Part shown: piece by piece, positions 8,001-51,088 of the stretch
Numbering within the stretch: the stretch's first letter is position 1
How the letters are laid out: every line of letters begins with the position of its first letter
Assembly (NCBI GenBank): GCA_000004985.1
Contig: GG738900.1
From: Naegleria gruberi
Taxonomy: Eukaryota
DNA length: 64,000 nucleotides
Direction: 5' to 3' (one strand)
The notes under the pieces: generated by a model
The model's input: only the letters and a program-made list of their open reading frames with translations
Database searches by the model: none
What the model was told of the DNA's origin: nothing
Position numbers and translations under genes: made by a program

Positions 8001-8074
8001 GCAGCGATAGATCAGTTGGTTAGATCGTAAGCCTAACACGCTTAAGGTCGCGGGTTCAAGCCCCGCTCGCTGTA
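8001..8074 (+). tRNA. tRNA-Val (anticodon AAC)
   Basis: GCAGCGA TA GATC AGTTGGTTA GATC G TAAGC CTAACAC GCTTA AGGTC GCGGG TTCAAGC CCCGC TCGCTGT A folds as a cloverleaf. It has a 7-bp acceptor stem (G1·U72 wobble), a 4-bp D stem, a 5-bp anticodon stem, the loop C-U33-AAC-A37-C and a GTTCAAGCC T-loop. It is followed by TTTT at 8077..8080. There is no intron and no encoded CCA. Confidence 0.85.
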
Positions 8075-35023: not shown

Positions 35024-36523
35024 TTATTTTTCATACAGTGGAATGTTTTGGTGTTTGCTGAAATGGCCTGTTGGCTTGAATATCTTAGTTTCATGTGTTT
35101 TGCCTTCCAATTTCAATTTAGATGCTTTGGCTCTTTGAATTTCCTCAATTTCGTGTTTACAATCAAAGGCCTTATCCTTATTGTCATGTAAGATATTGTA
35201 AGTAACCTCGTGCCAAACTCTTCTTGATTCGTATTCTTTTTGTTCATGGAGTGGCTTTACTACAAGCTCATTAGAGAATGGCAATGATTTGCAAAATGCT
35301 GCCTCAAAGAATGGCAAGTCTGATTTGAAAATCAATGGCAATAAAGTGGAAGGATACAGGTCAGAGCTGTTACCTTTGGTAATATTAATCTTTCCACAAA
35401 TATTTCCTTTGAGATTGAGCAATGTTTTGCCCTTTCTATCAGTCAAGCTTCCCGACACATCATTTCCACTTCCAAAATTCAATTTGACAGTAAGGCCTGA
35501 CTTTTTACACTTCACCTTGAGATACTCTCCATTTGTAATGGTAGAAGAACCCCAGAACAGACCATTGGCATACACATGAGGCAATGTAAAGTCGTATTCT
35601 TCAGTTTCTCCATTTTTCAAATCGACTTGAAGTAAATGCTTTCCAGCAATATTCAAATCAACATAATTCATCTTGAGTTTGGCCAGAATTTGGAAAGTTG
35701 ATTTCATGGACCAACCACACTTTTCATTTTCCATCAAGAAGGCACTAATTGGAGGATGGTGCGAAACTTGTTCTGCTGTAACCTTGGTCTTGCATTCTTT
35801 GAGCATTTCTTGCATTCTTTCTTGGTCTTGTGAAGTTTGATTGGAGAGCCAATTTTCCAACCACATGGCTGTTTTCTTTTCTCCTGATTTTTCCTCTTGT
35901 TGTTGTTCATTGACTGAAGAATGCCACTCTGCATGAAACTCCTCTCCAAGAATTGGATTGTATGGTTTTAAACCTTCAAAGCTATCTCCAAAAGTATTTG
36001 AACACGAAATGAGTGAAAAGAGTAAGCAACATAACATTCTATCTAGCTCACTATCCATTTCCCTCAACACCTTCAAAGCCAGTGTTGGTTCTGTATAGTA
36101 GGTATACAATTCAAGTGTTGAAATTGGTCTCATAATGAAAATAGGTGAACACATTCTCAAAAGGTCAACCTGAGGTTGTAACTGTTTGATAAATTGCCAC
36201 AGAATTGACGAAGACGACGAATCATTACTCTTCATCTTGTGAATCATTCCCCGATGAGAAAAGTCAGGGTGATGATAAATGTCATCTTGTCGTCCCTCAA
36301 AGGAACCATCATCATCAGACGATGATACCATCGAAGATCTATCATCACCATTCGATTCTACCAATGATGAACAGGCACTTGTTCCATTATTGGTGTGTAT
36401 ACTATTAGTATTGTTGTTATTGTTGATTATCTTTTGGAGTTCCTCTTCATTAACACTACTACTATTGTTGTTGTTATTAATACTCTTATCGTCTTCCAAC
36501 ATTGTATTTGAAGCCATCATCAT
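35024..36523 (-). CDS. Oxysterol-binding protein (OSBP/ORP) family protein, short form without PH domain
   Basis: ORF 35024..36526; GTG is followed by three ATGs, so the start is taken at ATG 36523. It contains the OSBP fingerprint EQVSHHPPISAF plus surrounding ORD-domain sequence (…PILGEEFHAEW…KCKKSGLTVKLNF…). The N-terminus is N/S-rich. Confidence 0.8.
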   Translation of the reverse strand: MMMASNTMLEDDKSINNNNNSSSVNEEELQKIINNNNNTNSIHTNNGTSACSSLVESNGDDRSSMVSSSDDDGSFEGRQDDIYHHPDFSHRGMIHKMKSNDSSSSSILWQFIKQLQPQVDLLRMCSPIFIMRPISTLELYTYYTEPTLALKVLREMDSELDRMLCCLLFSLISCSNTFGDSFEGLKPYNPILGEEFHAEWHSSVNEQQQEEKSGEKKTAMWLENWLSNQTSQDQERMQEMLKECKTKVTAEQVSHHPPISAFLMENEKCGWSMKSTFQILAKLKMNYVDLNIAGKHLLQVDLKNGETEEYDFTLPHVYANGLFWGSSTITNGEYLKVKCKKSGLTVKLNFGSGNDVSGSLTDRKGKTLLNLKGNICGKINITKGNSSDLYPSTLLPLIFKSDLPFFEAAFCKSLPFSNELVVKPLHEQKEYESRRVWHEVTYNILHDNKDKAFDCKHEIEEIQRAKASKLKLEGKTHETKIFKPTGHFSKHQNIPLYEK

Positions 36524-36994
36524 CACGAAGAAGTTAAATTATTATTATTTGGGTAATATAAATTCTTCAAGTTGGAATACTGTCTGTTTTTTTCTGATTA
36601 TGTAATCACCAAGGATTTCCAACCTCAACTACTTGAGAACCACAACAAGATACCATCACAAGAATCACCTCATGACTTGAGATTTTAATGTGGACATTCG
36701 CAGTTGTCTCTCCTTGTTTTCATGTTCAAGTTGTGTAATGGATTTTTTTTAAGCTTTAAAATTTACTGGTTTTTGGGCGCCAATCGCAACAAGCGCATGA
36801 ATTTATAGTTGAGCTAAGTTGAATTTCTTTGAGATCAATTGAAAATTTGAATACAACAAAACCAAAGTGAAAGGCTTGATCTATTTGAAAAACCAAATTA
36901 AGCTTTTTTTGTTTTTCAATGAATTTCAAATTTTAAATTGCAAAATTCTCTATCAATTACCACAAGAAATTCTTCAGTAATTACAAACAAAAAA

Positions 36995-38058
36995 ATGCTC
37001 AATCAATTACCACAAGAAATTCTTCTCAAGATTTTGGAGTACGAATATGAGCAAGTTCCTTCCCGAATATTTTTGAAAACATCAAATCACAAAATAATCA
37101 AATTCCGATGGATAGGAGGAAATTATTTAATAATGTTAATTTATTTAATAATTTGGAATTTACTTGTAAATATATTAGGAATGTTGTAAATATTGATCAA
37201 GAATTTTGGAAGGAATTAGTCATGCATTTGATTGTAAATTATTTTGTGTTTGGATCAGAGTTGGATTTGATTAGGATGGAAATTCAAAAATTGATTCCGA
37301 ACAAATCAATTTCTTTCAAGAGACTATTTGCTATATTGAACATGTATAGGAAACAGATGAGAACCAAGTTTTTAAAAAGGAGCAAACAAAGTAAGAATCG
37401 AGATGTGGTCAAAACTAGGAAAATTCTATTGCTTGGTATTGGTGGTGTTGGAAAATCGACAATTTGTTTTACCTATTCACAGAGAACAACAGATCAAACA
37501 CTATTTGATCCTACAATAGAAGATGCATTTAGGAGAACTATTTCATTGAATGGAAAGCAAGTAACTATGGAGTTAATTGATGCCATGTTTGGATGTGATG
37601 ATTTTTCATTTTCAACACTGATTAAAAAACAGGCAATAATAGATGCTGATGGAATAATGCTTGTCTGCTCTGTGAATGATAGGAACAGTTTTGAATATTG
37701 TGAAACGGAATTGGATTTTATTCTTTCAGCAAAGAATTTTCTTAATATACCAATCGCGTTTGTGATAAACAAGATTGACTTGGTGAATAATAACTCAAAC
37801 AGACGAGAGGTGGCATTTAATGAATCTAAAGCCCTTTTAGAATCTAAAGGTTTTGTAAATTATTCCATCTTTGAATCAAGTGCTTTGAAATTTGTAAATA
37901 TTGATGAAGCTTTTGAGGATTTGGCAAGAAAATGTGATAGAATTACTGAAGTCGATACACTTGCTCTGGTTAGGAAGATCATCAAGAAAGATTCCAAGGT
38001 ACTGATTGAAGATTTTGAAGGTTCTGAAAGCTCTCAAAACTCTTGCAACCTAATGTAA
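36995..38058 (+). CDS. Ras-superfamily small GTPase with N-terminal F-box-like region (5' structure unresolved)
   Basis: ORF 37108..38058 carries G1 GIGGVGKST, G2 DPTIED, G4 NKID and a degenerate G3 (LIDAMFGCDD). Its N-terminal part, …LEFTCKYIRNVVNIDQEFWKEL, looks like the second half of an F-box. The first half (MLNQLPQEILLKILEYEYEQ, ATG at 36995) lies in a different frame in ORF 36938..37189. An intron or frameshift of length 2 mod 3 would be needed to join them, and none is phase-compatible by my checks. A 23-bp direct repeat (36953..36975 and 37003..37025) duplicates the start region. Confidence 0.55.
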
Positions 38059-38120: not shown

Positions 38121-39317
38121 TTAGAATAAGAATGAAATTAAAACAAGCAAGCAAACAATTAGGAAAGAAGCTTGCTTAATATTGGAGGAACCACTTGTTT
38201 TAACAGCTCTTCCACTGCATTGAGTTGCTTTTTGATTGACAACAGTCAATTCATTTCCATTTCTTGTCAAGATGAAAGGATTGTTAAAGATTATTGCACT
38301 CAAAGTGGTGTCAGAATTAATGTTTGAAACTTGAGCAGACATGCTTGTTGAAGAGCCACATTGACCATTCACTGGACCAGTCAAAAAGACAGTATTAGTG
38401 TTGGACTTGGTGACAGAAACACTTCCTGTCAAACAACAACATGAATTGACATCGCATGTGTCTTGAACTTTCCATGTGCCAACCCAAGCAGATGTATAAT
38501 CCACTGGGTTAGATCCAGTTTGAACATCAACACCACGACTTTGTGAATAGGTATTTCCACCAGTAGTGTAGGTTGCTTTCAATTTAGCTGAAACTGAGGA
38601 TGAAACTGTGATAGAATTTGAGAATGTAGCAACACCATTAGAAGTTGTTGCAGTTGTTGAACCTCCCAGTGTACCACTTCCTTCCCAACTCAAAGAAATA
38701 CTTTCTCCAGAAGTAGAAACTGTGTTTCCACTGGTGTCAAGTAATCTGACTGTTGTGGTGAAGGTTTGACCGCTGTTAACAGTTGTTGGAGCAGAAAGAT
38801 CCAAACCAACAACAGTACCTGTAGGAGTAGTACAACCATAAGAAACACTATACTTCAATGGACAACTCATGATTGCGTTGGTGCACTCAACAAAAAATTT
38901 GGCATTTTGTTGATCTAATCTGTATGTACCAGCATAAACGCAAGTAACAGAGCTTGCTGAAGAAGGACCATTGTAGTAACTGAAAGGAAGACCTTGTTTA
39001 TATTTTTCAAAATCAGCTTCAGAAACAGTGTAGTATTTGAAGGAGCTTCCATCAGTTGACTGAACATTAACGCTATAGGAAGATACAACTTGGCCGGTAG
39101 GACAGGTTAGAGAGAAACTAGTATAGGCATGGGCAGCAACACTTTGAGGACAAGTGCCACCCCCACATGTACATGCAATACATGAGCAGCTTTGTCTTGG
39201 GCTTCTGAACAAGTTTTGTTCCACAGCCTTGAGAGAAAGTTGAGAAGAAACTTGTTGAGCACAAGCCATTAATACAAAAAGCATAATAGCAGCTAGAATA
39301 GATTTGGTGTGAAACAT
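38121..39317 (-). CDS. Secreted Cys-rich, Ser/Thr-rich surface glycoprotein with hydrophobic C-terminus (GPI-anchor-like), paralog A
   Basis: ORF 38121..39338 starts at GTG, and the ATG at 39317 gives the signal peptide MFHTKSILAAIMLFVLMACAQQ. A Cys-rich N-module precedes S/T-rich stretches. The conserved C-terminal domain is …DYTSAWVGTWKVQDTCDVNSCCCLTGSVSVTKSNTN…GQCGSSTSMSAQVSNINSDTTLSAIIFNNPF…TRNGNELTVVNQ…CSGRAVKTS… followed by a hydrophobic tail. Confidence 0.6.
   Translation of the reverse strand: MFHTKSILAAIMLFVLMACAQQVSSQLSLKAVEQNLFRSPRQSCSCIACTCGGGTCPQSVAAHAYTSFSLTCPTGQVVSSYSVNVQSTDGSSFKYYTVSEADFEKYKQGLPFSYYNGPSSASSVTCVYAGTYRLDQQNAKFFVECTNAIMSCPLKYSVSYGCTTPTGTVVGLDLSAPTTVNSGQTFTTTVRLLDTSGNTVSTSGESISLSWEGSGTLGGSTTATTSNGVATFSNSITVSSSVSAKLKATYTTGGNTYSQSRGVDVQTGSNPVDYTSAWVGTWKVQDTCDVNSCCCLTGSVSVTKSNTNTVFLTGPVNGQCGSSTSMSAQVSNINSDTTLSAIIFNNPFILTRNGNELTVVNQKATQCSGRAVKTSGSSNIKQASFLIVCLLVLISFLF
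38181..38520. repeat. Near-identical (about 97%) 0.33-kb tract shared with 39681..40020 (3' coding halves of the two tandem paralogs)
   Basis: Direct comparison of the two stretches shows only scattered substitutions. This is consistent with a recent tandem duplication or gene conversion. Confidence 0.7.
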
Positions 39318-39372
39318 TTTTTTGTCAATGAGAGTCACTGTTCAGTTTTACTAGCTGTCACTTAATACCTTT

Positions 39373-41390: not shown

Positions 41391-44300
41391 ATGACACAAT
41401 CACCTTCATCAAATCAGGGTGGTAATGACAAGAGCAAAAACTTTCCCAGCCGTATCAAAAGCTTTTTCATCAAGTCATCTTCTCCAACTAGTCCCAACAA
41501 TTCCTTACAACCGAGAATTTCATCACCCAACTCTCCAAATCTTCCCAAAACTGCAAGTTCCAACACTCTTCCTATTCATATTCATAATAATAACAATAAT
41601 ATCGAGAACTCTCCATCATTCACCAGAAAGAGTAGTGCTAGCAATGAAATATCATCAGTATTATCTTCCTCTCCACTTGTTAATTCCCCATCATTAAATT
41701 CATCGTCGAATATCAATAATATTCGGCATAGTAACAATCAATTTTTGATGGTTTCTCCATCATTGAATAATAATAATAATATTTCTCCACCTAATAATAA
41801 TAATAATTCTAATAATTATTATTCAACAACAACGGGAACAACAACTTCAAACACTACATCATCTAACGAGGCAATTTCCCCAAATACCAATAATGGTGGT
41901 AGTGCTGCTGCTACTAGTGGAGGAGGACAACAACAAAACGACAACAACAACAACAATATTCAGCAGCATCAACTCGAGCCAATTGTTTTTGATTCGCCAA
42001 ACTCACCTCCAAATCACAGTAAAAACAACGGGTCGTTTTTGGCGGGAGAATTTGATAAGAAAAAAAATCATCATGAGCCTACAGTTTCATCCTCATCCAA
42101 TTATACGACCACTTCGACATCAAATTCTATCGGAAGTGGTGGAGGTGGTAGTAGAAGAATGGATAGTACAGTATCGGATATTGTTGTTGGAGGACATATT
42201 TTGTCAAGTTCAGTGATGAATAGTGATTTGATGCAATATGATTTGAATTTTAATGAGGGAGGATCAAGAAAAACATTTGATTTTCATAACATGACAGCAA
42301 ATTCGACACTGGGTAGCCTTCCTCCTGGAGGATTTTTACATGGTGCTTCGAATAGTCAAACTAATTTTGGAAGTGTAAGAGATTCTAATGCAATACTTTC
42401 GGAGAGTATGTTGGATAGACATCTATTGGATGTCCATCATCAAGATGGTATGTTCATCAATTATCTTACTTGATAATAATTGATTAACTCATTTATATTC
42501 TAATAGATTCTATTTCTCAATCATCAATGGACTCAGCGAGGTCAACTCCTCATGTTAATATTGCCCGTTTGGGTCATCATCAAAAAGATACACATTCACA
42601 ATTTAATGACATCACAGTTTCGGATGAAGGAACAACAGCTGAGGATACCTTGTCTGTTAATGGAGTTCCAATGAATGTAGATGAAATATTTCATGTTTAT
42701 TCTGTAGAAAATAATCCAACCATATCCATGACAGGTTATGCTGACACTTACATGTCATCTTTTTCTAACATTAAAAATTCAACGAGTGAAGATAAGAATT
42801 TATTTGGATTACAATGTTTACCAAATATTTTCCAACCACTTTACTACAAAGATAATGATAATTCAGCCTATGGATTTTCAGAAATCAAGAAAGTTCCTCT
42901 ATTGTCTCAACTGTCAGAACAGGAAGTTTCAGACTTGCCTGTACATGCACGCAAGACAATCAAAAACAAATATGAATCACCATTCCTTGTACTTTTATCA
43001 AATTCTAAGAAACAACATCATCTCTCTAGGAGCACTCTCAAAAAATTCTCTGTCAGTCAAACTAAAAAGCAATTAATTGAGGATACTAAATGGAGAATGT
43101 TTGAAGATGCCATGCTTTCAAAGGAAGTTAGATTTCACAATGATCCTAACACTTCATCCAGTAATCCAGTTTCGGATTACATTTTACCATCTGGAAAGAA
43201 CGACAAAACCAGAAACAGGTCAGACTCTGGAGGCTTACTGACATTGAAAACACTTTCGGATTTTGGTGGGAAACCTTCAACCAGTCCATCAACCAGTCCG
43301 ACCGTTGGAAGTCCTCTAACACTCGAATCCATGTTTAAAAGAAAACAATCAGATTATGCAAGCTCACCAAATACTGATGATACATCTAGCCTTTCTTCAA
43401 TGAAAGGGTACGATTCCAGTTCTGAGGAGGAAGAAAGCTTTCAAATTGCCAATTTTTCTCCTAGAATAATTCAAGAAATACCACATGGTTTCTTGGCTAC
43501 TAGATTGGACCTACTTAAAGATTATATGAAAGAATCATGTGAGGAAAACACTAATGTTTCACTGAAGAAGAATGTTGCTGAATACAAAGTTTGGAAGAAG
43601 GAACATTCTCTCCTCGAATTTTTATCTGACGATTTGATGAATACACACGAACTGAAAACAAAACTGTTTCCATTCATGTATGCACCAAACGAAAATCTGA
43701 AGGATGGATCATCTGACATTTTACTTCAAAACTTTTATGTCAACAAGCAAGACGTTGATAATAGAGCCAAACTAATTATTGATATAGAAAAATTCAAGCT
43801 GGATTTTGTTGAAGAGCACTTGAATGGAGTACCATTGGAGAATTTTTATGCCAGTTTAACCTTGTACTCTGTCAAGCTAACAGAATCTCAAAATCCATCC
43901 ATCTCTGCAGTTAAAAGATATAGCGAAACATTTTCCTTCAATCTTTCGTCTTCATCCAATAATAGTAAGAGAGCTCTCTTCTACTTGTCAAGCCAAAATT
44001 TGCCTAACAGCACAGCACCAAACACTGAAAAGGTGTTTGTCTTGGTGAGAATATTTAGAAACTTTAAGGGAACTTATGCGGAACACTTTAACGAGCTCTA
44101 TATCAAAGGAAAAAATACGCCAAAGAGTTCCTCTGATAAACCATTCAATGTCAATGACTCTAAAGATTACAAGGCAATCAAGGCTGTTAAACCAGCATTC
44201 TTTGAGTCTCTTAAGGATGTTTACTCTGCTTTTGCATGGTCTATTGTAGAACTCAATCCAATGCTCAACAGTCTTCCTGCTCTCCAATTCCCTAGTTTGT

Positions 44301-47300
44301 ACATGAATGGTGAAGGACTTTCAAACGATTTTTATGTGAAGAATATTTATTGTATACCAGACAAACTGGTTGGAAACGTTTCAGATGACAAGCTTTTCGA
44401 AGTTTATTTTGCCAATGGATTGAATCTCATCCCTAACGTTGCCGAAGTATCTGCAGGAGAAAGTGGAATTTCTGGAGGTCTTTCAACAAGCGAAAAAACC
44501 CTTGTTGTCAACAGTGGTAAGGATATCATCAAACAGCTGTCGAAGACAATGCTTAGAAGTATTCCTAGCAAGCTTACCTTCAAACTAATGCTGTTGCCTC
44601 CATCAAAATCTAATCAAACTCTTAGAGCTTCCCTATTTGAAAATGAAAAGCAATATCAATATGTACAGAGAAAATACTTACCGGAAAATAATATGTTAGT
44701 CATTCAAAAGGAATCTGTCACCGATCAAGTTGAAAAGAAAAAGAAGAATAGAGATGATAGCAAGGAGACCTTGCAGGCTGATTTACCTGTTACTGAAATG
44801 GAACAGTTCTATTCTTCCAATACCATGCCAGAATCTACTACAAGACAAACAAATTTGAGAAATGAGCTTTACATTTATCCACAAAGTGCCAACTTTTCCA
44901 AATTTGCAGTCAAAAATAAGAATATTCAAATAACAGTGTCTTACAATGATACAGACCAAAACTTCTCACTCAATAATATGGAACAAAGAAACAAAGGACT
45001 TTTCTACAAACCTTTCACTAGTAATAATTCAAGTGACCGTATTAATGAGGGTGAATGTGTTAGTGTAGCTTTGAAGAACGAGAAACCAGAATTTAGTGAT
45101 GAAATCAAATGTATTATTCCGTGCCGTTATCCAACTGAGGATGAAGATTGTAGACAACACTTAGTTTTCAAGTTTTACAATGTTTCACACAAAGAGACAA
45201 TTCAAAAGAAAGCTAGTGATGTAGAACTTTCTCAATCTAGAACTCTTATTGGTGTATCATTTTTGAAAGTATACAAGAAGGTAACAACAACAATTGATAA
45301 GAGAAAAATCATCCTCAAAGATCTAATTAATGGAGATTTTGAGTTGCCAGTTTATCCAGTTCTTAACATTCCAAACGCAAACTATTTGAGATTATGCGAC
45401 CAAATTATGGATCCTTCTCTAGTACATATCAAACCATCGGCTACTTTTAAAGTTAAAATTATTCCATATAGCTTTATTTTACCAAATATTGCTCTCACTT
45501 TCCCATACTCAACCTCCAACATTATCAATTTGTTCCTTCTCAAGTTTTTCAGATTGGTTAACAATACAGTTTCTGTCACTCCAACATTTGAAGAAATTGC
45601 AGATGTTTACAAGACTTTGATTCAAACTTACGAGTATGAAAAACAAGTTGTATCCAACACCATTTGGTTTGAAATGCATGCTTTATATTTACCAATGATA
45701 TTGAACACTTGTTTTGACTGGATTATTGACACCTTTGGTAAAGACAAGAATTACACAACAGAATTATGGAAAATTATCCTCTTCTTCATTGAAAAGTATA
45801 ACCAACATTCGGCATCTTCTTCAACTGTTCTCAAAATCTACCAAAAATATCATTTCAGATTCTCCAAGAGTGGGGATGATGTTATTTTCAAGTTGATCTC
45901 ATCATTTATTGACTCAATCAAAATTGAGAATTCCAAACTGAGTCCTAAAGGAAACGTATTTGAGGAACTCTTCTTGAGAAACAACCAAACAATATTTGGG
46001 TTATTTTTGAAGAGTATTGTTTGTTCAATGAGTTATAATACTGTGGAACCATTCCAAGTCGATAATGAGTTTGATAATCTTCATATTATGACTAAGTCAA
46101 GTTTGAACGCCATAGAACAATTTACTGTAATGGTTTTGGAAATGGTGGAAAGAGTTTCATTCAAGAATGAAAAGCATACAATCCTCAAATCATTCTTGAA
46201 GAGTTTTGCTGCTTTTTATTCCCATCTAATTGCTATTTATTCGATAAAGGCAGAAAAGCGGTTTGAACTTGCAGGACTCATCTCCAAACAAGAAATTATC
46301 CAATACCTCCTTAAATTTATAGAGTCGATGGGTTATTTACCTTCTCTATACAAGTTGAAGAATAATGATAACGACTCTAAGAAATCCAAGGAAATCTCTA
46401 CACTGGTATCAGAATCACAATTATTGATGATTAGTGAACTTTTACTTCATTTCCCTTCATTTGAACTTTCTCTACCTCCACCAATTTCTCTCCTTGATAG
46501 TATCATTGCTCAAAGTCAAAATGCAGAAGCACCAATATCAAACTTTAGAGATATTCATCACTTTGTTTTCTCTTCATTTGCCGAATATTTCGTAAGAACA
46601 ATTTACTTGGCTGAAGAGAAAGAAGTTAGACTTAAGGCAATTTTACTATTCAAAGAATATGTAGAAAAGATCAGTAGAGAAAGTAGTACTGTTCAATTAT
46701 CAGAAGAAAGTCAACCTGATGAACAAAAGGCCGAAGTTCGATCTAGAATATTCACTTCCCAATTACTTCTTGAATTCTTTGCCAAACATATGATTGAGAT
46801 TTTCCCAGAGTGGAAGAGAAACGCAGAGTCTAATCAAAAGAAAATTACAACTGCTATTGAGGAGTTGAGAAGAAAAATATCACAAGTGGAAAGAGATATT
46901 CTTGCAGCCCAAGACAGTCTTAACCAGGCAAAGCAAAATAAGACAAAGAAGTCAACGGAACCAGAAAAGAAGTTGAACCACTTGGATGTTCAATTAACAA
47001 CTTTGAAACAGTTATTGCTTACAAAAGAAAAGCAATTATTGGAGGAATTTGAAACAACCAAAACTGAAAAACGTATGCTTCTTTCTGTGTTTGTCCAAAT
47101 AACAACAAATTGTGATGAGAACTCGCTTAGATCTCTATGGAAGATTAAACCAGCTTCAGAAGATTCTAACATGTATCACGATGACGGTCTTCATTTCAGT
47201 TCTAAACTCTTGATGATATTCCAAATGTGTGTACAGAGTTTTGAGTATGGCGGCTATTCTCCTTTATATCACTACTTTGATAGACTCTACCAAAAGCTTC

Positions 47301-50300
47301 CACAGAATCAAACTGTGAAACACTCCACACCTCTCAATGAAAAATTCTCTCCAGCTAAATCAAACCCTTCAATTTCTAGGTCAGCAAGTGACAGGAAGAA
47401 AGGTGACGATAAACCACTCACCAAAATGAGTTTAGATGGACCTATGGATGTTGATTCTCCAGTGAGATCTTCTCCTAGCCAAGGAGCAAACAGTGGAATT
47501 TCTAAATCTGATTATATTGAGAAAAAGATAACCATTGAGAGATTGATTTCCAACGAGACAAGTTCAACCATTTTTCAACTCTTCTTAAAATTCATGGAAG
47601 ACAATGCCGAGTTTATTCAAAATATTGTTCGTCCAGGAGCATACATTGATCCAAAACATTTACCACCGATTTTGGAAAATATTGTCAGAACACTTTTGAA
47701 TTTATTGAGATCAAACCTAAGCGAATGCTTGACAATATCCGTATTGTTGTATTTGAGACATGTTTTATCTCAACATCCTTTCACTGCCATATTCTATAAT
47801 CCACAATCAGAATATGGTTTGCTATTCTCTGAAGAACTACTTCGTTTGAGTCACTCCAAGCTTGGTTCGATTAGAAAACACGCTGCTGCCTGTTTCTACT
47901 TGTGGATTCGTTTTTGCTTTGAAGAAAACAAAGGTATGACTGTTCCACAAATAATGGTAACTCTCTCCCTTTCAAGAAGATTGCAAAGTTATACCAAAAT
48001 TACCCACAACTTTTTATCAGACAATACTATAGGTGATGAATCGTTTGATGATTCTGAAGGTATTAATGCTCTGGCTCACATTGAAGAATGTATTAAATTG
48101 TTGCCTTACTTTGCCATCAAGGATGAGGCAGCTCCAGGTTCAAAATTCTTCAAAATTAGAAACAAGTACGGAGCTCAAAAGGGTGATGTTACGGATAGAG
48201 AAGTCCAAGCCGAAGATAATAATGGAAAACAGAAAGGAGAAAGATTCCACACTGCTATGGTGTTCTTTAAAAAGATTGAAAACAAGGCAGATCAAAAGAA
48301 ATTTGGACAGAAAGTTCTCGAAGTGTTAGACCAATTCCACGATTTATTGTCTGATCTTTCTAAAAAGTTACTCAGTCTTGTTCAAGATACCATGTCAATT
48401 AGGGCCACAATGATCAAGCGAAAGCAAAGTGAAACTAGCACTGTAACTTATGATCCATTCAAAACTGAAGAATTATTGTATAGAATATCTGACAATTATT
48501 CAAAACTTCCTGAACTCAGACTTGCATGGCTGGAACAACTTGCCTCCTATCACAAAGGATTGGCCCAATATGAGGAGTCTGCACATTGCTATTTGAGAAT
48601 TCTCTCTCTAGTATTCGATTATTTGGATCATCAAGCTACAAAGAAATTCACTCCCAACAGTATCAAAACGGAAACGTCTGTATTGGAAATTCTTCCACTC
48701 TCTCAATTCTACAGCATTTCTCCAATGTTGATAGAATTCAAGGTGAATCAAACAGGCATTCAAACTCAATCACTTTTAGGAGGAGGAAATTCCAAGTATG
48801 ATTACATGTCCGATCAGTCCATTGTGAATTACATACTCAAAACTATTGACTCTTTAGAGTTGGCTGAATGTTTCGAACACTGTATCATGTTATACAAGCT
48901 ACTGATTCCTATTTTCGAATCTAAATATGCTAACTTTACACAATTGCATATTATTTACGACAGATTGACACAACTCTATAAGAAATGCTCCTCCTTCCAA
49001 TCAACATCTAATAGCAAAGTTCCAACCTCTCCTAGTGATAATGAAACTACTAATGCCCTATCCCTCTCCAATATCTCTTCACTCTCAGCTTCAAAGACAA
49101 CAGAAAACGAAACCGACAGTAGAGTATATAGCTTTTATTATCGTGTCAAATTTGTTGGAAGAGCATTTGGTGAATTGGATGGCAAAGTTTACATTTACAA
49201 AATGCCAAAACTATTCAAACTTTTTAAGATGAAGAACAAAATGTTGGAAATTTATGGAAAGGATGTAGAAGTTGTTTCTAAAGATGAAGCTGGAGTAGTT
49301 ACCGCTGATGATGAGCTTTCAACTGGTTCTGAATCAAATAAGAAGGTCATTCAAATTAACCATGTCAAGCCATTCCTTCCAACTGTAGATCAAATGAAAA
49401 TTTTAAGAAAGAAATTTGATGATCTCAATAGATTGAGTAATATTAGTACAAGTGTTAATAGTGCTCCTAGTACGAGAGGATCCGATAGAAATTACAAGAC
49501 TATTCTCAAAAAGAGTCCAATGACCTCCAGTACTAGCAAATTACCAACAATGAGCAGTGATAGTCTCAGTCCTAGAAATCGTTCTAATTCAAACTCTCAA
49601 CCTCCTCTTCCAACTCTCAGATCAAATATCAAATTCAAGAGTGACGAGAATTTGTCAGTTTACAATATGGAAGGAGTTGCTTCACCACTATCACCAAGAG
49701 ATGGCATCCTATCGCCAAGTTCTCCTTCTAAAGTTTCCATTCCAAAACTTAATCTATCCAAGAATAAGAAGGAAAATTCAGGTAACCAAAGTGAATCCAA
49801 CCAAAATGCCTTCCAAGATATGGAACGATTTTTATATGATAAGATTTTATCACTCAACTACTTTATTACCAGAGACTCTGAATTCCAAAGAAATATGAAC
49901 CTCAACCATTTCTTTTATGAATATTCTGTTGCTGCCAAAGGAGCAGACATTACTCAAACTTACAAGAAGAAGATTTTAATCACCACTGAAGAGTACTTCC
50001 CTAATGTCATGACTCGTTTGGAAGTAGCTGAGGAAAAGGAATTTACACTCTCTCCAATTGAAAATTCAATTGAAATGATTGATACACAAGTTAAAAAATT
50101 AGAGACTGCCATGAATTCAGTATTATCAACAGCTCTGGGTGACGTGGCGAATTATAGCGTTCTTGGAAATATGTTCAATCACTCTGTCCACACATCTAGT
50201 CACAGCAATAATACTGGAACACCTGGCTACAACAAACGTCACTCCATCAAAGGTGGTTCCAATTTGGTGATCAATTTGAACATGACCAATTCTCTAGGTA

Positions 50301-51088
50301 CTGTTCCATACTTTAACGATCTGAACATTAATCCTCACACTGTCTCCACTCTACAAATGATCTTGCAAGGAAGCGTTCAAGCAAGGGTTGGTGAAGGACC
50401 TAAAAAAGTTGTGGAAATCTTTTTAAATAGAGAATTCAGAGAAAGATGGAAAGTTCAACAAGGAAACTCTGACCTTATCACCAAGCTTAATGAGAGATGT
50501 TTCAGATTTTTGTTATTGTGTGATAGAGGAGTCAAGTTGCATTCTCTCATAATCCACTCTCAAACACCAACAGCTACCAACAATAAGGATAGAATTTTAC
50601 ATGCAGAATTGGAGAAGGGTTTCCATGAAGTCAAGTCATTATTCGAAGCCTACCTAGAAATTCCAACTGTGAGAACCTTTGTACCAGTTGTTAATGGATC
50701 TATTGTACCAGAGAGAGTAACCAACATGAAGAAGGGACAAGAAACTGTAGAAACATTTATTACTGTCACTGTTCAAGATGTTTTGAATTATCCAGATTTA
50801 TTCTACAAGCACAATAATATTTCTTACAATACTCTGCAAAATCTTAAACTTGGCAAACAACAATTAACCGACCCATTCAAACAAATTTCAACACCATCAG
50901 AATCGCCAAGAAATGCAGACCTCCTCAATGCAATCAGAAACAACAATAGACTTTCAATTCCATCAACTAAAATGAAGGAATATTTGGAACAATTAAGTAT
51001 TCCCTCAGGAAGATCTCTCAACTTGGATTCTGATAACCATCTAGTTCACGACTTACTCCTTCGTCAGTCCTCAGCTGATCTTCAATAA
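41391..51088 (+). CDS. DOCK-family (DOCK/zizimin-like) Rho/Rac guanine-nucleotide exchange factor, about 3200 aa, 2 exons
   Basis: ORF 42527..51088 (2853 aa) contains DOCK DHR-2-region hallmarks: LPELRLAWLEQLASYHKGLAQYEESAHCYLRILSLVFDYL, YSFYYRVKFVGRAFGELDGKVYIYKMPKLFKL, VIQINHVKPF and a C2-like DHR-1 region upstream. The preceding ORF 41391..42473 (S/N-rich) ends in phase 1 at a GTATGT donor (42448). It joins exon 2 at 42507 through a 59-nt AT-rich intron ending TAATAG, in frame with the 42527 ATG. Model join(41391..42447,42507..51088). Confidence 0.75.

What the first reader, a model, noticed from the sequence alone, without database searches (positions are those of the whole stretch)
36938..37200. 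Possible F-box–Ras-like GTPase fusion whose F-box is split across two reading frames, with a 23-bp tandem duplication over the start codon region
Frame A (ATG 36995) encodes the first half of an F-box, LPQEILLKILEYEYEQ. Frame B (ORF 37108) encodes the second half, LEFTCKYIRNVVNIDQEFWKEL, and continues directly into a small-GTPase domain. An F-box joined to a Ras-family GTPase is an unusual architecture; it might form an SCF substrate adaptor with a GTP switch. The two halves need a junction of length 2 mod 3 that I cannot place with canonical signals. The start region is duplicated at 36953..36975 and 37003..37025.
Basis: partly seen in the sequence, partly recalled or inferred. Interest (0 to 1): 0.5.

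Follow-up and report, generated by a model that had tools for sequence, protein, structure and literature searches.

The report
Split F-box–Ras GTPase gene, Naegleria
This is a Naegleria gruberi gene for a lipid-anchored Ras-type GTPase with an F-box-like head; the head looks split only because a short intron (or, less likely, a frameshift) separates a tiny first exon from the rest, and this kind of protein is already known to be common in Naegleria.

Summary
The window is Naegleria gruberi NEG-M. ATG 36995 opens a short frame encoding MLNQLPQEILLKILEY. The 316-codon ORF 37108-38058 encodes the second F-box half, a helical linker, a divergent Ras-family GTPase domain and a CaaX box (CNLM).

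A GT-AG intron (37039-37115, 77 nt) and a GC-AG intron with a consensus-like GCAAGT donor (37051-37115, 65 nt) both join the frames. Any join lifts Pfam F-box-like above its gathering score (25.0-31.1 bits vs 24.3). Neither half passes alone.

Homologues with the same layout (LPxEI..ILxF/Y … FW … Ras … CaaX) occur in N. gruberi, N. lovaniensis, N. fowleri and Willaertia magna. Herman et al. 2021 already report F-box–GTPase fusions as frequent in Naegleria. Their Table S8 lists this gene as "Ras", starting at ATG 37108, with no F-box.

New here are the missing first exon and the F-box-like reading of this Ras-type subfamily.

A frameshifted relic N-terminus remains a serious rival (about 0.25). 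No transcript data could be reached. SCF function is inferred only.

The start-region repeat is real: 47-nt copies, 83% identical, 50 nt apart.

The parts
36929..36975 (+). Upstream copy of the duplicated start region. It is non-coding: ATT replaces ATG at 36945-36947 and a TAA follows at 36978-36980.
   Evidence: the repeat finder family D1: 47 nt, spacing 50, 83% identity. Ungapped comparison. TRF period 24 x 3.3 copies.
36979..37025 (+). Downstream copy of the duplication. It holds the A-rich leader, the start codon ATG 36995 and codons 1-10 plus the first base of codon 11 (MLNQLPQEIL-L).
   Evidence: The exact 24-nt core is 37002-37025 = 36952-36975.
36995..37050 (+). Exon 1 under the preferred model, ending in phase 2: MLNQLPQEILLKILEYEYE. 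It is the first half (helix 1) of the F-box-like motif. Under the GT-donor model the exon ends at 37038 (..KILE).
   Evidence: First in-frame ATG, in the context AAAAAAATG. Frame A alone scores 15.1 bits on PF12937 positions 1-15. tblastn re-finds it. Adding it raises the family-HMM score by 9-18 bits.
37051..37115 (+). Putative 65-nt GC-AG intron, donor GCAAGT, acceptor GGATAG. The alternative is a 77-nt GT-AG intron from 37039 (donor GTACGA). A tandem acceptor GAG lies at 37116-37118.
   Evidence: Enumeration of all in-frame joins. In-phase chance per 14 slots: any GT 0.47-0.50, GT[AG]NG 0.04, GCAAGT 0.004. Family introns in relatives are 50-121 nt, GTNNGT...[ACT][AT]AG; one, the suspect N. 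lovaniensis model, starts GTCCCA. No transcript evidence is available.
37116..38058 (+). Exon 2 through the stop codon TAA (38056-38058). It encodes the second F-box half, linker helices, GTPase domain, C-terminal helices and CaaX.
   Evidence: Part of the 316-codon ORF 37108-38058. Identical to the 'Ras' model on ACER01000547.1 in Herman et al. Table S8, which starts at ATG 37108.
37153..37218 (+). Second half of the F-box-like motif: LEFTCKYIRNVVNIDQEFWKEL.
   Evidence: PF12937 aligns over profile positions 1-46 of 47 only when this is joined to exon 1. Coordinates.
37420..37935 (+). Ras-family GTPase domain. G1 GIGGVGKS 37435-37458; G2 DPTIED 37507-37524; aberrant G3 DAMFG 37579-37593; G4 NKID 37768-37779; G5 SSAL 37876-37887.
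   Evidence: Pfam Ras PF00071, 86 bits, residues 105-276 of the ORF. AF2 model with Foldseek top hits Rap1, KRAS and R-Ras, E~1e-12. Motif coordinates.
38044..38055 (+). CaaX prenylation box CNLM. X = Met predicts farnesylation.
   Evidence: Sequence. A C-terminal Cys-x-x-[MQA] is nearly invariant in the family alignment (C325 in at least 90% of rows). The farnesyl rule is established knowledge and was not tested.

Best explanation
The locus is a two-exon Naegleria gruberi gene that is missing from the deposited protein set. A 44-56-nt first exon starts at ATG 36995. A short spliceosomal intron ending at the TAG of 37113-37115 is removed; it is most likely the 65-nt GC-AG intron from 37051 and otherwise the 77-nt GT-AG intron from 37039. 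The exon is thereby joined in frame to the long ORF.

The product is 328-332 aa. It has an N-terminal F-box-like three-helix motif, about 70 residues of helical linker, a divergent Ras-family GTPase domain, two C-terminal helices and a CaaX box (CNLM).

It belongs to a heterolobosean expansion of F-box-like/Ras/CaaX proteins.

Inferred mechanism: farnesylation tethers the protein to a membrane. The GTPase domain has intact G1, G2, G4 and G5 motifs, but its G3 is DAMFG and it has no Gln61 equivalent. It therefore probably binds nucleotide and hydrolyses it poorly. The F-box-like head would couple it to Skp1/cullin, either as a nucleotide-dependent substrate receptor or to control its own turnover.

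Shown: the sequence features, the family and the domain calls. Inferred: splicing, prenylation, Skp1 binding and nucleotide behaviour.
For: Organism: four ORFs of the window are exact N. gruberi NEG-M proteins.

Junction: only a handful of in-frame joins exist. Two share the acceptor 37115 and have plausible donors. Among 14 in-phase slots the chance of a GT[AG]NG is 0.04 and of a GCAAGT 0.004, and both are present 12 nt apart. Length, donor +5G and the ATAG acceptor match nine mapped introns of family genes in N. lovaniensis, N. fowleri and W. magna, and candidate N. gruberi introns in this window.

F-box: PF12937 scores on the first ~100 aa were GT77 27.3, GT80 31.1, GC65 27.8 and GC68 28.1 bits against a cut-off of 24.3. 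The ORF alone gave no hit and exon 1 alone gave 15.1.

Family HMM built without this gene: GC65 210.5, GT77 201.1, ORF only 192.1 bits. The aromatic residue after IL-x is present in all 13 alignment members that carry the LPxEI motif and is kept as Y by the GC model. The N-terminal family profile hits AnkB, TIR1, FBXO3, Cdc4 and cyclin F as its top five in the PDB.

GTPase.

Context: ATG 36995 sits in AAAAAAATG and is the first in-frame ATG.

Published background: F-box–GTPase fusions are frequent in Naegleria (PMC8296547 supplements).
Against: No transcript evidence could be reached. The gene is absent from the protein and contig collections, and two metagenome scans found nothing.

An in-phase GT alone is expected by chance about half the time.

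None of the five family genes whose structure I mapped has an intron in the F-box region.

The best N. lovaniensis homologue reads straight through this position with a ~25-residue insert, about as long as the proposed intron. This fits a once-continuous coding region that later suffered a frameshift.

The GT donor has A at +6, where 8 of the 9 mapped family donors have T (the exception is the suspect GTCCCA model), and it would delete the conserved aromatic. The GC donor class is rare in eukaryotes generally, and I found no report of it in Naegleria.

No T[AG]AC branch-like box lies in the last 40 nt, though most mapped family introns have one. This is my reading, not a formal test.

The unspliced frameshift join also passes Pfam (25.0 bits, in two stretches) and scores 207-208 bits on the family HMM.

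Fold search of the N-terminal model (pLDDT 69.5) gave only generic helical matches.
Confidence: 0.62

Rival explanations
1. Frameshifted relic. The ancestral gene had one continuous exon with an insert inside the F-box-like region, as its relatives do. A real 1-nt insertion or 2-nt deletion between about 37051 and 37187 broke it. The mRNA is not spliced. Translation either stops at 37187 (a 64-aa peptide) or starts at ATG 37108, giving the published 316-aa model with only half an F-box. The LPQEIL exon is then a recent, still undecayed remnant, or the whole gene is a young pseudogene.
For: Herman et al. describe birth-and-death evolution with disrupted coding sequences in these expansions.

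The closest homologue, N. lovaniensis P0007, appears frame-disrupted around its P-loop, and its annotated intron starts with an atypical GTCCCA. It translates through the homologous position.

Frame A keeps the family-typical 'ILEY' beyond the GT donor.

Frameshift joins score almost as well as the best spliced model on the family HMM (207-208 vs 210.5 bits).

No F-box intron was found in the mapped relatives.
Against: Two donor-like sites in the right phase are jointly improbable by chance (0.04 x 0.004; this is partly post hoc).

The 316-codon ORF, the CaaX box and four of five G motifs are intact.

ATG 36995 has a far better context than ATG 37108 (ccgATGg).

Exon 1 is a perfect F-box helix 1.
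Confidence: 0.25
2. Assembly or sequencing error. The true genome has one base more or fewer in a homopolymer (for example T5 at 37070-37074 or the A runs at 37076-37079 and 37091-37094). The gene would then be a single uninterrupted exon encoding an F-box-like region with a ~25-residue insert.
For: Several homopolymer runs lie in the critical 37051-37115 stretch. The resulting protein resembles the insert-bearing relatives.
Against: From my own knowledge, not checked here: the NEG-M assembly is Sanger-based with deep coverage, so indel errors should be rare. The same donor-signal coincidence argues against this as against the frameshift rival.
Confidence: 0.06
3. The join is real, but the N-terminal motif is only an F-box-derived helical extension that no longer binds Skp1. 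It would serve, for example, as a family-specific regulatory or dimerisation module. This rival concerns function, not gene structure, and can be true together with any structural model.
For: Seven N. gruberi paralogues give no F-box-like or F-box hit; the only trace is a sub-threshold F-box-like_2 match in one.

Most family members carry 10-70-residue inserts between the two halves.

This gene scores only 3-7 bits above the cut-off.

The published table assigns no F-box to any 'Ras' row that I read (parts 1-2 of 8 of Table S8).
Against: L-P, E, I/L and the helix-3 W are conserved across the family. The top five PDB profile matches are all bona fide F-box proteins, aligned at their F-boxes. 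An environmental member (P0093) passes both PF00646 and PF12937.
Confidence: 0.35

Closest known systems
Naegleria F-box–GTPase fusions and the 'Ras' entry ACER01000547.1** of Herman et al. 2021 (BMC Biol 19:142, PMC8296547; Additional files 4 and 10)
   Same: Same organism and the same gene: residues MDRRKLF...CNLM are identical to the published, newly created model. The paper states that the F-box is the most frequent extra domain on Naegleria Ras-superfamily GTPases. It also describes Rab-like subgroups with an F-box N-terminal extension, one of them with a CaaX motif, and birth-and-death evolution.
   Different: The published model starts at ATG 37108 and so lacks the LPQEILLKILE(YEYE) exon. 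It lists no additional domain. [quoted passage not shown] None of the 'Ras' rows I read carries an F-box label (parts 1-2 of 8), although many start with LPxEIL..IL.F.
TbFRP, the FYVE–F-box–Ras-like GTPase of Euglenozoa (PMC3593210)
   Same: A small GTPase domain lies C-terminal to an F-box in a member of Discoba. The authors suggest a link to ubiquitylation and rapid turnover.
   Different: TbFRP has an N-terminal FYVE domain for PI3P binding, and its GTPase is closest to Rab18. The authors found no N. gruberi orthologue. The present protein has no FYVE domain, a Ras/Rap-like GTPase and a CaaX tail.
RhoBTB atypical GTPases (cited by Herman et al.; the comparison is from my own knowledge)
   Same: A Ras-superfamily GTPase domain with non-canonical catalytic residues is fused to a cullin-adaptor module. 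It is a working analogy for 'GTPase plus E3-ligase adaptor in one chain'.
   Different: The adaptor is BTB (Cul3), not F-box (Skp1/Cul1). The order is GTPase first. The GTPase is of the Rho family. There is no homology in the adaptor part. This was not tested here.
Canonical Ras/Rap GTPases (H-Ras, K-Ras, Rap1)
   Same: Best structural matches of the GTPase domain (Foldseek E~1e-12, TM on target 0.8). G1, G2, G4 and G5 motifs and a CaaX tail are present.
   Different: G3 is D-A-M-F-G instead of DTAG, and Cys stands at the Gln61 position. The family consensus there is DTAGPEE, with Pro. A 115-aa N-terminal extension and an extra pair of C-terminal helices are present.

Membership tests
F-box / F-box-like domain (Pfam PF00646 / PF12937) | Sequence match to the curated profile above its gathering score over (nearly) the whole domain | tested here: met
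   PF12937 scored 27.3-31.1 bits (cut-off 24.3) over profile positions 1-46 of 47 for all four spliced models. The unspliced frameshift join scored 25.0 bits in two stretches. The 328-aa full-length protein scored 24.3, exactly at the cut-off. PF00646 itself scored only 13.5-15.3 bits against 20.5, so it is not met. The result depends on joining the two frames.
F-box / F-box-like domain (Pfam PF00646 / PF12937) | Three-helix F-box fold | tested here: inconclusive
F-box / F-box-like domain (Pfam PF00646 / PF12937) | Binding to Skp1 and assembly into an SCF ligase | not testable with these tools
   Needs pull-down or two-hybrid assays. L5, P6, E8, I9, L10, I13, L14 and W of helix 3 are present, but that is only consistent with binding.
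Ras family of small GTPases (Pfam PF00071) | Profile match and Ras-like fold | tested here: met
   PF00071 scored 86 bits, E=2e-24, over profile positions 1-160 of 162. Foldseek top hits were Rap1, KRAS and R-Ras. A profile search was dominated by Ras/Rap proteins. The gene is classed 'Ras' in Herman Table S8.
Ras family of small GTPases (Pfam PF00071) | Complete G1-G5 nucleotide-binding and hydrolysis motifs, including DxxG and catalytic Gln61 | tested here: not met
   G1 GIGGVGKS, G2 DPTIED, G4 NKID and G5 SSA are present. G3 is DAMFG, with one extra residue, and Cys stands at the Gln61 position. The protein is therefore an atypical Ras. GTP binding and hydrolysis were not tested.
Prenylated (CaaX) GTPases | C-terminal Cys-aliphatic-aliphatic-X tetrapeptide | tested here: met
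   CNLM lies at 38044-38055, directly before the stop. The Cys is conserved in at least 90% of family rows. Actual farnesylation was not tested.
Heterolobosean F-box-like/Ras/CaaX expansion (Naegleria, Willaertia) | Full-length collinear similarity: LPxEI..ILx[FYW], ..FW[KR].., KR linker motif, Ras domain, C-terminal 'L.K.I..D' helices, CaaX | tested here: met
   phmmer alignments cover residues 2-325 of the query in W. magna and N. gruberi members. The family HMM scored 201-210 bits.
Spliceosomal (U2-type) intron | GT/GC-AG boundaries, correct phase and a length typical of the lineage | tested here: met
   37039-37115 (GTACGA..ATAG, 77 nt) and 37051-37115 (GCAAGT..ATAG, 65 nt) qualify. Relatives' introns are 50-121 nt.
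Spliceosomal (U2-type) intron | Actually removed from the transcript | not testable with these tools
   No N. gruberi transcript data were reachable. The exact look-ups and two collection scans were empty.

The most novel reading that the evidence does not exclude
The 65-77 nt between the two halves may be a recently 'intronised' piece of what used to be coding sequence: the variable insert that relatives still translate inside their F-box-like region. A frameshift would then be rescued by two tandem, same-phase donors (GTACGA and GCAAGT, 12 nt apart) and a tandem TAG/GAG acceptor. Splicing would remove the insert and regenerate a compact, canonical-length F-box, possibly in two or more isoforms (+/-YEYE, +/-R). 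If so, this would be a natural example of intron birth from exon sequence in an intron-poor protist, and a first documented GC-AG intron in Naegleria.
Probability: 0.15. Interest if true: 0.5.

Novelty: new member of a known kind. Interest (0 to 1): 0.28.

Why it matters
The practical gain is a corrected gene model. The gene is absent from the deposited N. gruberi proteome, and the published hand-made model lacks its first exon, which hides half of an F-box-like motif.

More broadly, the large Ras-type expansion of Naegleria and Willaertia shares this N-terminal motif. Domain scans mostly miss it because of inserts between the two halves. The published idea of GTPase-dependent ubiquitination in Naegleria (Rab, Rho, Ran, G-alpha) may therefore extend to dozens of farnesylated Ras-like proteins.

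It is not a new kind of system. F-box–GTPase fusions are already described in Naegleria and in trypanosomes.

Tried and rejected
1. Exact look-ups of the ORF product and of neighbouring products for contigs with called genes. N. gruberi gene positions are not indexed, so no annotation or exon structure for this scaffold could be fetched.

2. Word-indexed homologue search with the spliced protein returned only a fungal Ras. The profile version was swamped by ordinary Ras/Rap proteins. A search with the N. lovaniensis homologue returned only itself, so no N. fowleri orthologue was found.

3. Searching for a shared intron in the F-box of relatives found none. Their introns lie in the GTPase domain at several different positions.

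4. DNA alignment of the putative intron to the N. lovaniensis insert was not significant (local score 18 vs 14.7±2.5, 12% of shuffles reach it). Homology of intron and insert remains undecided.

5. Ab initio listing of GT/GC-AG joins between long ORFs of the window gave hundreds of chance joins. It was useful only to show that a bare GT-AG is weak evidence and to pick out a few consensus-donor candidates.

6. AT-AC (U12-like) joins and the 128/140-nt joins to acceptor 37178 were rejected. They delete the second F-box half and score 14 bits or less.

7. Fold search of the N-terminal model was non-specific.

8. Scans of the metagenome collection for spliced junctions and for an orthologous P-loop stretch found nothing.

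9. A literature search for GC-AG introns or splice-site consensus in Naegleria found nothing usable.

10. Programmed ribosomal frameshifting was considered and dropped. There is no slippery heptamer at the frame overlap and no precedent in this family. This is my inspection, not a formal test.
Full report
**What the window is.** Four long ORFs of the window are letter-for-letter identical to GenBank proteins of Naegleria gruberi strain NEG-M: EFC39358, EFC39360, EFC39424 and EFC39366, all from one 312-kb scaffold. The composition fits: 32-37% G+C, dense long ORFs and few introns. The finding lies between an oxysterol-binding-protein gene on the minus strand (35024-36526, PF01237) and an unassigned Ser/Thr/Cys-rich ORF on the minus strand (38121-39338).

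**Checking the observation.**
ATG 36995, in the context AAAAAAATG, opens a frame reading MLNQLPQEILLKILEYEYEQVPS... that stops at 37187.
- ORF 37108-38058, two bases out of phase, reads MDRRKLFNNVNLFNNLEFTCKYIRNVVNIDQEFWKEL.... After about 70 more residues it runs into a Ras-family GTPase domain (PF00071, 86 bits, E=2e-24) and ends in CNLM-stop.
- The repeat is real and longer than reported. The exact core is 24 nt (36952-36975 = 37002-37025) and is found nowhere else in the window. It sits in 47-nt copies at 36929-36975 and 36979-37025, 83% identical and 50 nt apart. TRF also describes a period-24 array of 3.3 copies.
- The downstream copy contains the start codon. The upstream copy has ATT in its place and a TAA after '..QEILQ', so it is non-coding.

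**The junction.**
- Enumerating every donor/acceptor pair that gives an open reading frame into the GTPase ORF leaves few candidates.
- Two sensible donors share one acceptor: GT at 37039 (GGA|GTACGA) and GC at 37051 (TGA|GCAAGT), both in phase 2, with the acceptor at GATGGATAG|G (37115). A second AG lies three bases on (37118).
- The introns would be 77 or 65 nt (80 or 68 with the second AG), all 2 mod 3 as required.

*How much is this worth?* A bare in-phase GT is expected by chance about half the time (0.47-0.50). A GT[AG]NG is expected 4% of the time, and a GCAAGT 0.4% of the time (14 in-phase slots, frequencies taken from this window). Both are present. This is the main argument that the region carries real splice signals. 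I looked for the GC donor only after seeing the protein evidence below, so the figures should be discounted somewhat.

*Comparison with mapped introns.* I mapped nine introns exactly in family genes of N. lovaniensis, N. fowleri and Willaertia magna. They are 50-121 nt. Eight of the nine have donors of the form GT[ATG]NGT; the ninth is the suspect GTCCCA model of P0007. Their acceptors are [ACT][AT]AG. One of them even ends in the same GGATAG. Candidate N. gruberi introns in this window look alike: GTAAGT, GTGAGT or GTAGGT donors and 52-113 nt (ab initio only).

**Does joining the halves make an F-box?** Yes, and only joining does.

| Model (first ~100 residues) | PF12937 F-box-like, bits (cut-off 24.3) |
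|---|---|
| GT-77 | 27.3 |
| GT-80 | 31.1 |
| GC-65 | 27.8 |
| GC-68 | 28.1 |
| Unspliced join with an artificial frameshift | 25.0 (two pieces) |
| Exon 1 frame alone | 15.1 |
| ORF from ATG 37108 alone | no hit |

In the spliced models the match covers profile positions 1-46 of 47. The full 328-aa protein scores exactly 24.3. PF00646 proper stays below its cut-off. The call is therefore 'F-box-like, just above threshold'.

**Relatives.**
- An exhaustive phmmer search found many proteins that align over the whole length, N-terminus included. The named ones are N. lovaniensis C9374_003144 (best, 39% identity), N. gruberi 'ras family small GTPase' EFC35765/EFC40289, further N. lovaniensis proteins, N. 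fowleri FDP41_005795, and several Willaertia magna proteins. Unnamed environmental sequences also appear.
- The alignments show one layout: LPxEIxxxILx[FYW], a variable insert of 0-70 residues, L..I.K.F....FW[KR], a linker with a conserved KR, the Ras domain, two helices with L.K.I..D, and a CaaX box.
- One environmental member passes both F-box models. Two Willaertia members come close.
- A profile of the N-terminal regions, searched against all PDB sequences, gives Legionella AnkB (E=0.007), TIR1, FBXO3, Cdc4 and cyclin F as its five best hits, each aligned at its F-box.
- Seven N. gruberi paralogues taken from the literature show no F-box-like or F-box hit in Pfam, only a faint sub-threshold F-box-like_2 match in one. 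This is presumably because of their inserts.
- The fold search of my N-terminal model was non-specific.
- The family's head is thus F-box-related by sequence. Whether it still works as an F-box is open.

**Which junction model?**
- A family HMM built without this gene scores GC-65 at 210.5 bits, frameshift joins at 207-208, GC-68 at 207.9, GT-77 at 201.1, GT-80 at 198.9 and the ORF alone at 192.1.
- The 9-bit advantage of GC-65 over GT-77 comes from keeping 'ILEY'. The aromatic residue after IL-x is present in every member that has the motif (13 of 13, and also in the paralogues).
- GCAAGT is the form that GC donors usually take (general knowledge). GTACGA departs from the local consensus at +6.
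- I therefore prefer the 65-nt GC-AG intron. GT-77 is a close second, and both may be used.

**The serious rival** is that nothing is spliced and the gene carries a genuine frameshift.

*In its favour:*
- The nearest homologue, in N. lovaniensis, translates straight through this position with a ~25-residue insert, about the length of the proposed intron.
- None of the mapped relatives has an intron there.
- That homologue itself looks frame-disrupted around its P-loop.
- Herman et al. describe birth-and-death evolution with disrupted members.
- I see no clear T[AG]AC branch-like box near the 3' end.

*Against it:*
- The double donor coincidence.
- The intact 316-codon ORF, with CaaX and four G motifs.
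- The much better start context of ATG 36995.
- An undecayed helix-1 motif.

*Weighing.* I put splicing at about 0.65-0.7, a real frameshift at about 0.25 and a sequencing error at about 0.06. The DNA of the putative intron is not detectably similar to the N. lovaniensis insert. This leaves open the attractive idea that the intron arose from former coding sequence.

**What is already known.**
- Herman et al. 2021 (PMC8296547) curated the Ras superfamily of N. gruberi and N. fowleri. [quoted passage not shown] It says some Rab-like subgroups have F-box N-terminal extensions, one with a CaaX motif, and it suggests 'GTPase-dependent ubiquitination'.
- Their Table S8 lists this very gene as 'Ras'. 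It is a newly created model on contig ACER01000547.1, starting MDRRKLF (ATG 37108). It is not flagged as a pseudogene and has no additional domain.
- The string LPQEILLKILE does not occur in their files. None of the 'Ras' rows I read (parts 1-2 of 8 of the table) carries an F-box label, although many begin with LPxEIL..IL.F.
- TbFRP of trypanosomes is a FYVE–F-box–GTPase. Its authors found no Naegleria orthologue (PMC3593210).
- The architecture is therefore known. The missing exon, and the F-box-like reading of the Ras-type subfamily, are refinements.

**How it probably works (inference).**
- The CNLM tail predicts farnesylation and membrane attachment.
- The GTPase domain keeps G1 (GIGGVGKS), G2 (DPTIED), G4 (NKID) and G5 (SSA). 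Its G3 is DAMFG, with Cys at the Gln61 position, and the family consensus there is DTAGPEE. This suggests nucleotide binding with weak hydrolysis, as in other atypical GTPases.
- The F-box-like head would recruit Skp1/Cul1. The protein would then be either a membrane-bound, nucleotide-dependent substrate receptor or a GTPase whose own stability is controlled by SCF. RhoBTB (GTPase plus Cul3 adaptor) is the nearest functional analogy, from my own knowledge.
- None of this was testable here.

**The duplication.** The duplication over the start region has no evident function. The upstream copy lacks an ATG and is followed by a stop. It is most simply a slippage product in the leader or promoter.

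**Verdict.** The finding is a real, correctly observed feature with an ordinary explanation: a short 5' intron (or a young frameshift) in a member of a published Naegleria gene expansion. Interest is modest.

Noticed in passing
window 36995-38058: The gene has no counterpart in the searched protein collection, which does hold neighbouring N. gruberi proteins. It appears to be unannotated in the deposited proteome and exists only as a hand-made model in a supplementary table.
   Followed up: yes
L001:6001-7120 (N. lovaniensis PYSW02000017.1, gene C9374_003144): The closest homologue's annotated 121-nt intron starts with an atypical GTCCCA and removes the beta-1/P-loop lead-in. Another frame encodes ..EKEYRKTVILGSG, followed by a good GTTTGT...TAATAG intron that is one base out of phase. 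It looks like a pseudogene or an assembly with indel errors.
   Followed up: partly
window 37113-37118: Tandem acceptor TAG|GAG (NAGNAG type) at the end of the putative intron. Using the second AG would drop one Arg and gives the highest F-box-like score (31.1 bits).
   Followed up: partly
window 36919-36936: A five-codon upstream ORF (ATGAATTTCAAATTTTAA) lies just before the duplicated start region. It matters only if transcription starts further upstream.
   Followed up: no
window 37081-37098 and 37238-37255; 36938-36957 and 37192-37211: Two AT-rich inverted repeats (89% and 85% complementary) pair the putative intron or leader with exon 2. They are probably chance in AT-rich sequence.
   Followed up: no
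Herman et al. Table S8, N. gruberi 'Ras' rows: Many N. gruberi 'Ras' paralogues begin with LPxEIL..IL.[FY] and end in CaaX but carry no F-box label. Seven that I scanned show no Pfam F-box-like or F-box hit, probably because of long inserts between the two halves.
   Followed up: partly
window 8001-8074 (+): A tRNA-Val (anticodon AAC) gene, the only tRNA in the window.
   Followed up: no
window 42527-51088 (+) and 38121-39338 (-): An uninterrupted 2853-codon ORF, and a 405-codon Ser/Thr/Cys-rich ORF with a hydrophobic N-terminus and no Pfam hit, lie next to the gene.
   Followed up: no
window 19857, 20985, 21328 (+); 23420, 1528 (-): Consensus-type donors (GTAAGT, GTAGGT, GTGAGT) link long open frames over 52-156 nt. 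These are likely genuine N. gruberi introns and are useful as a local reference, but they were inferred ab initio only.
   Followed up: partly
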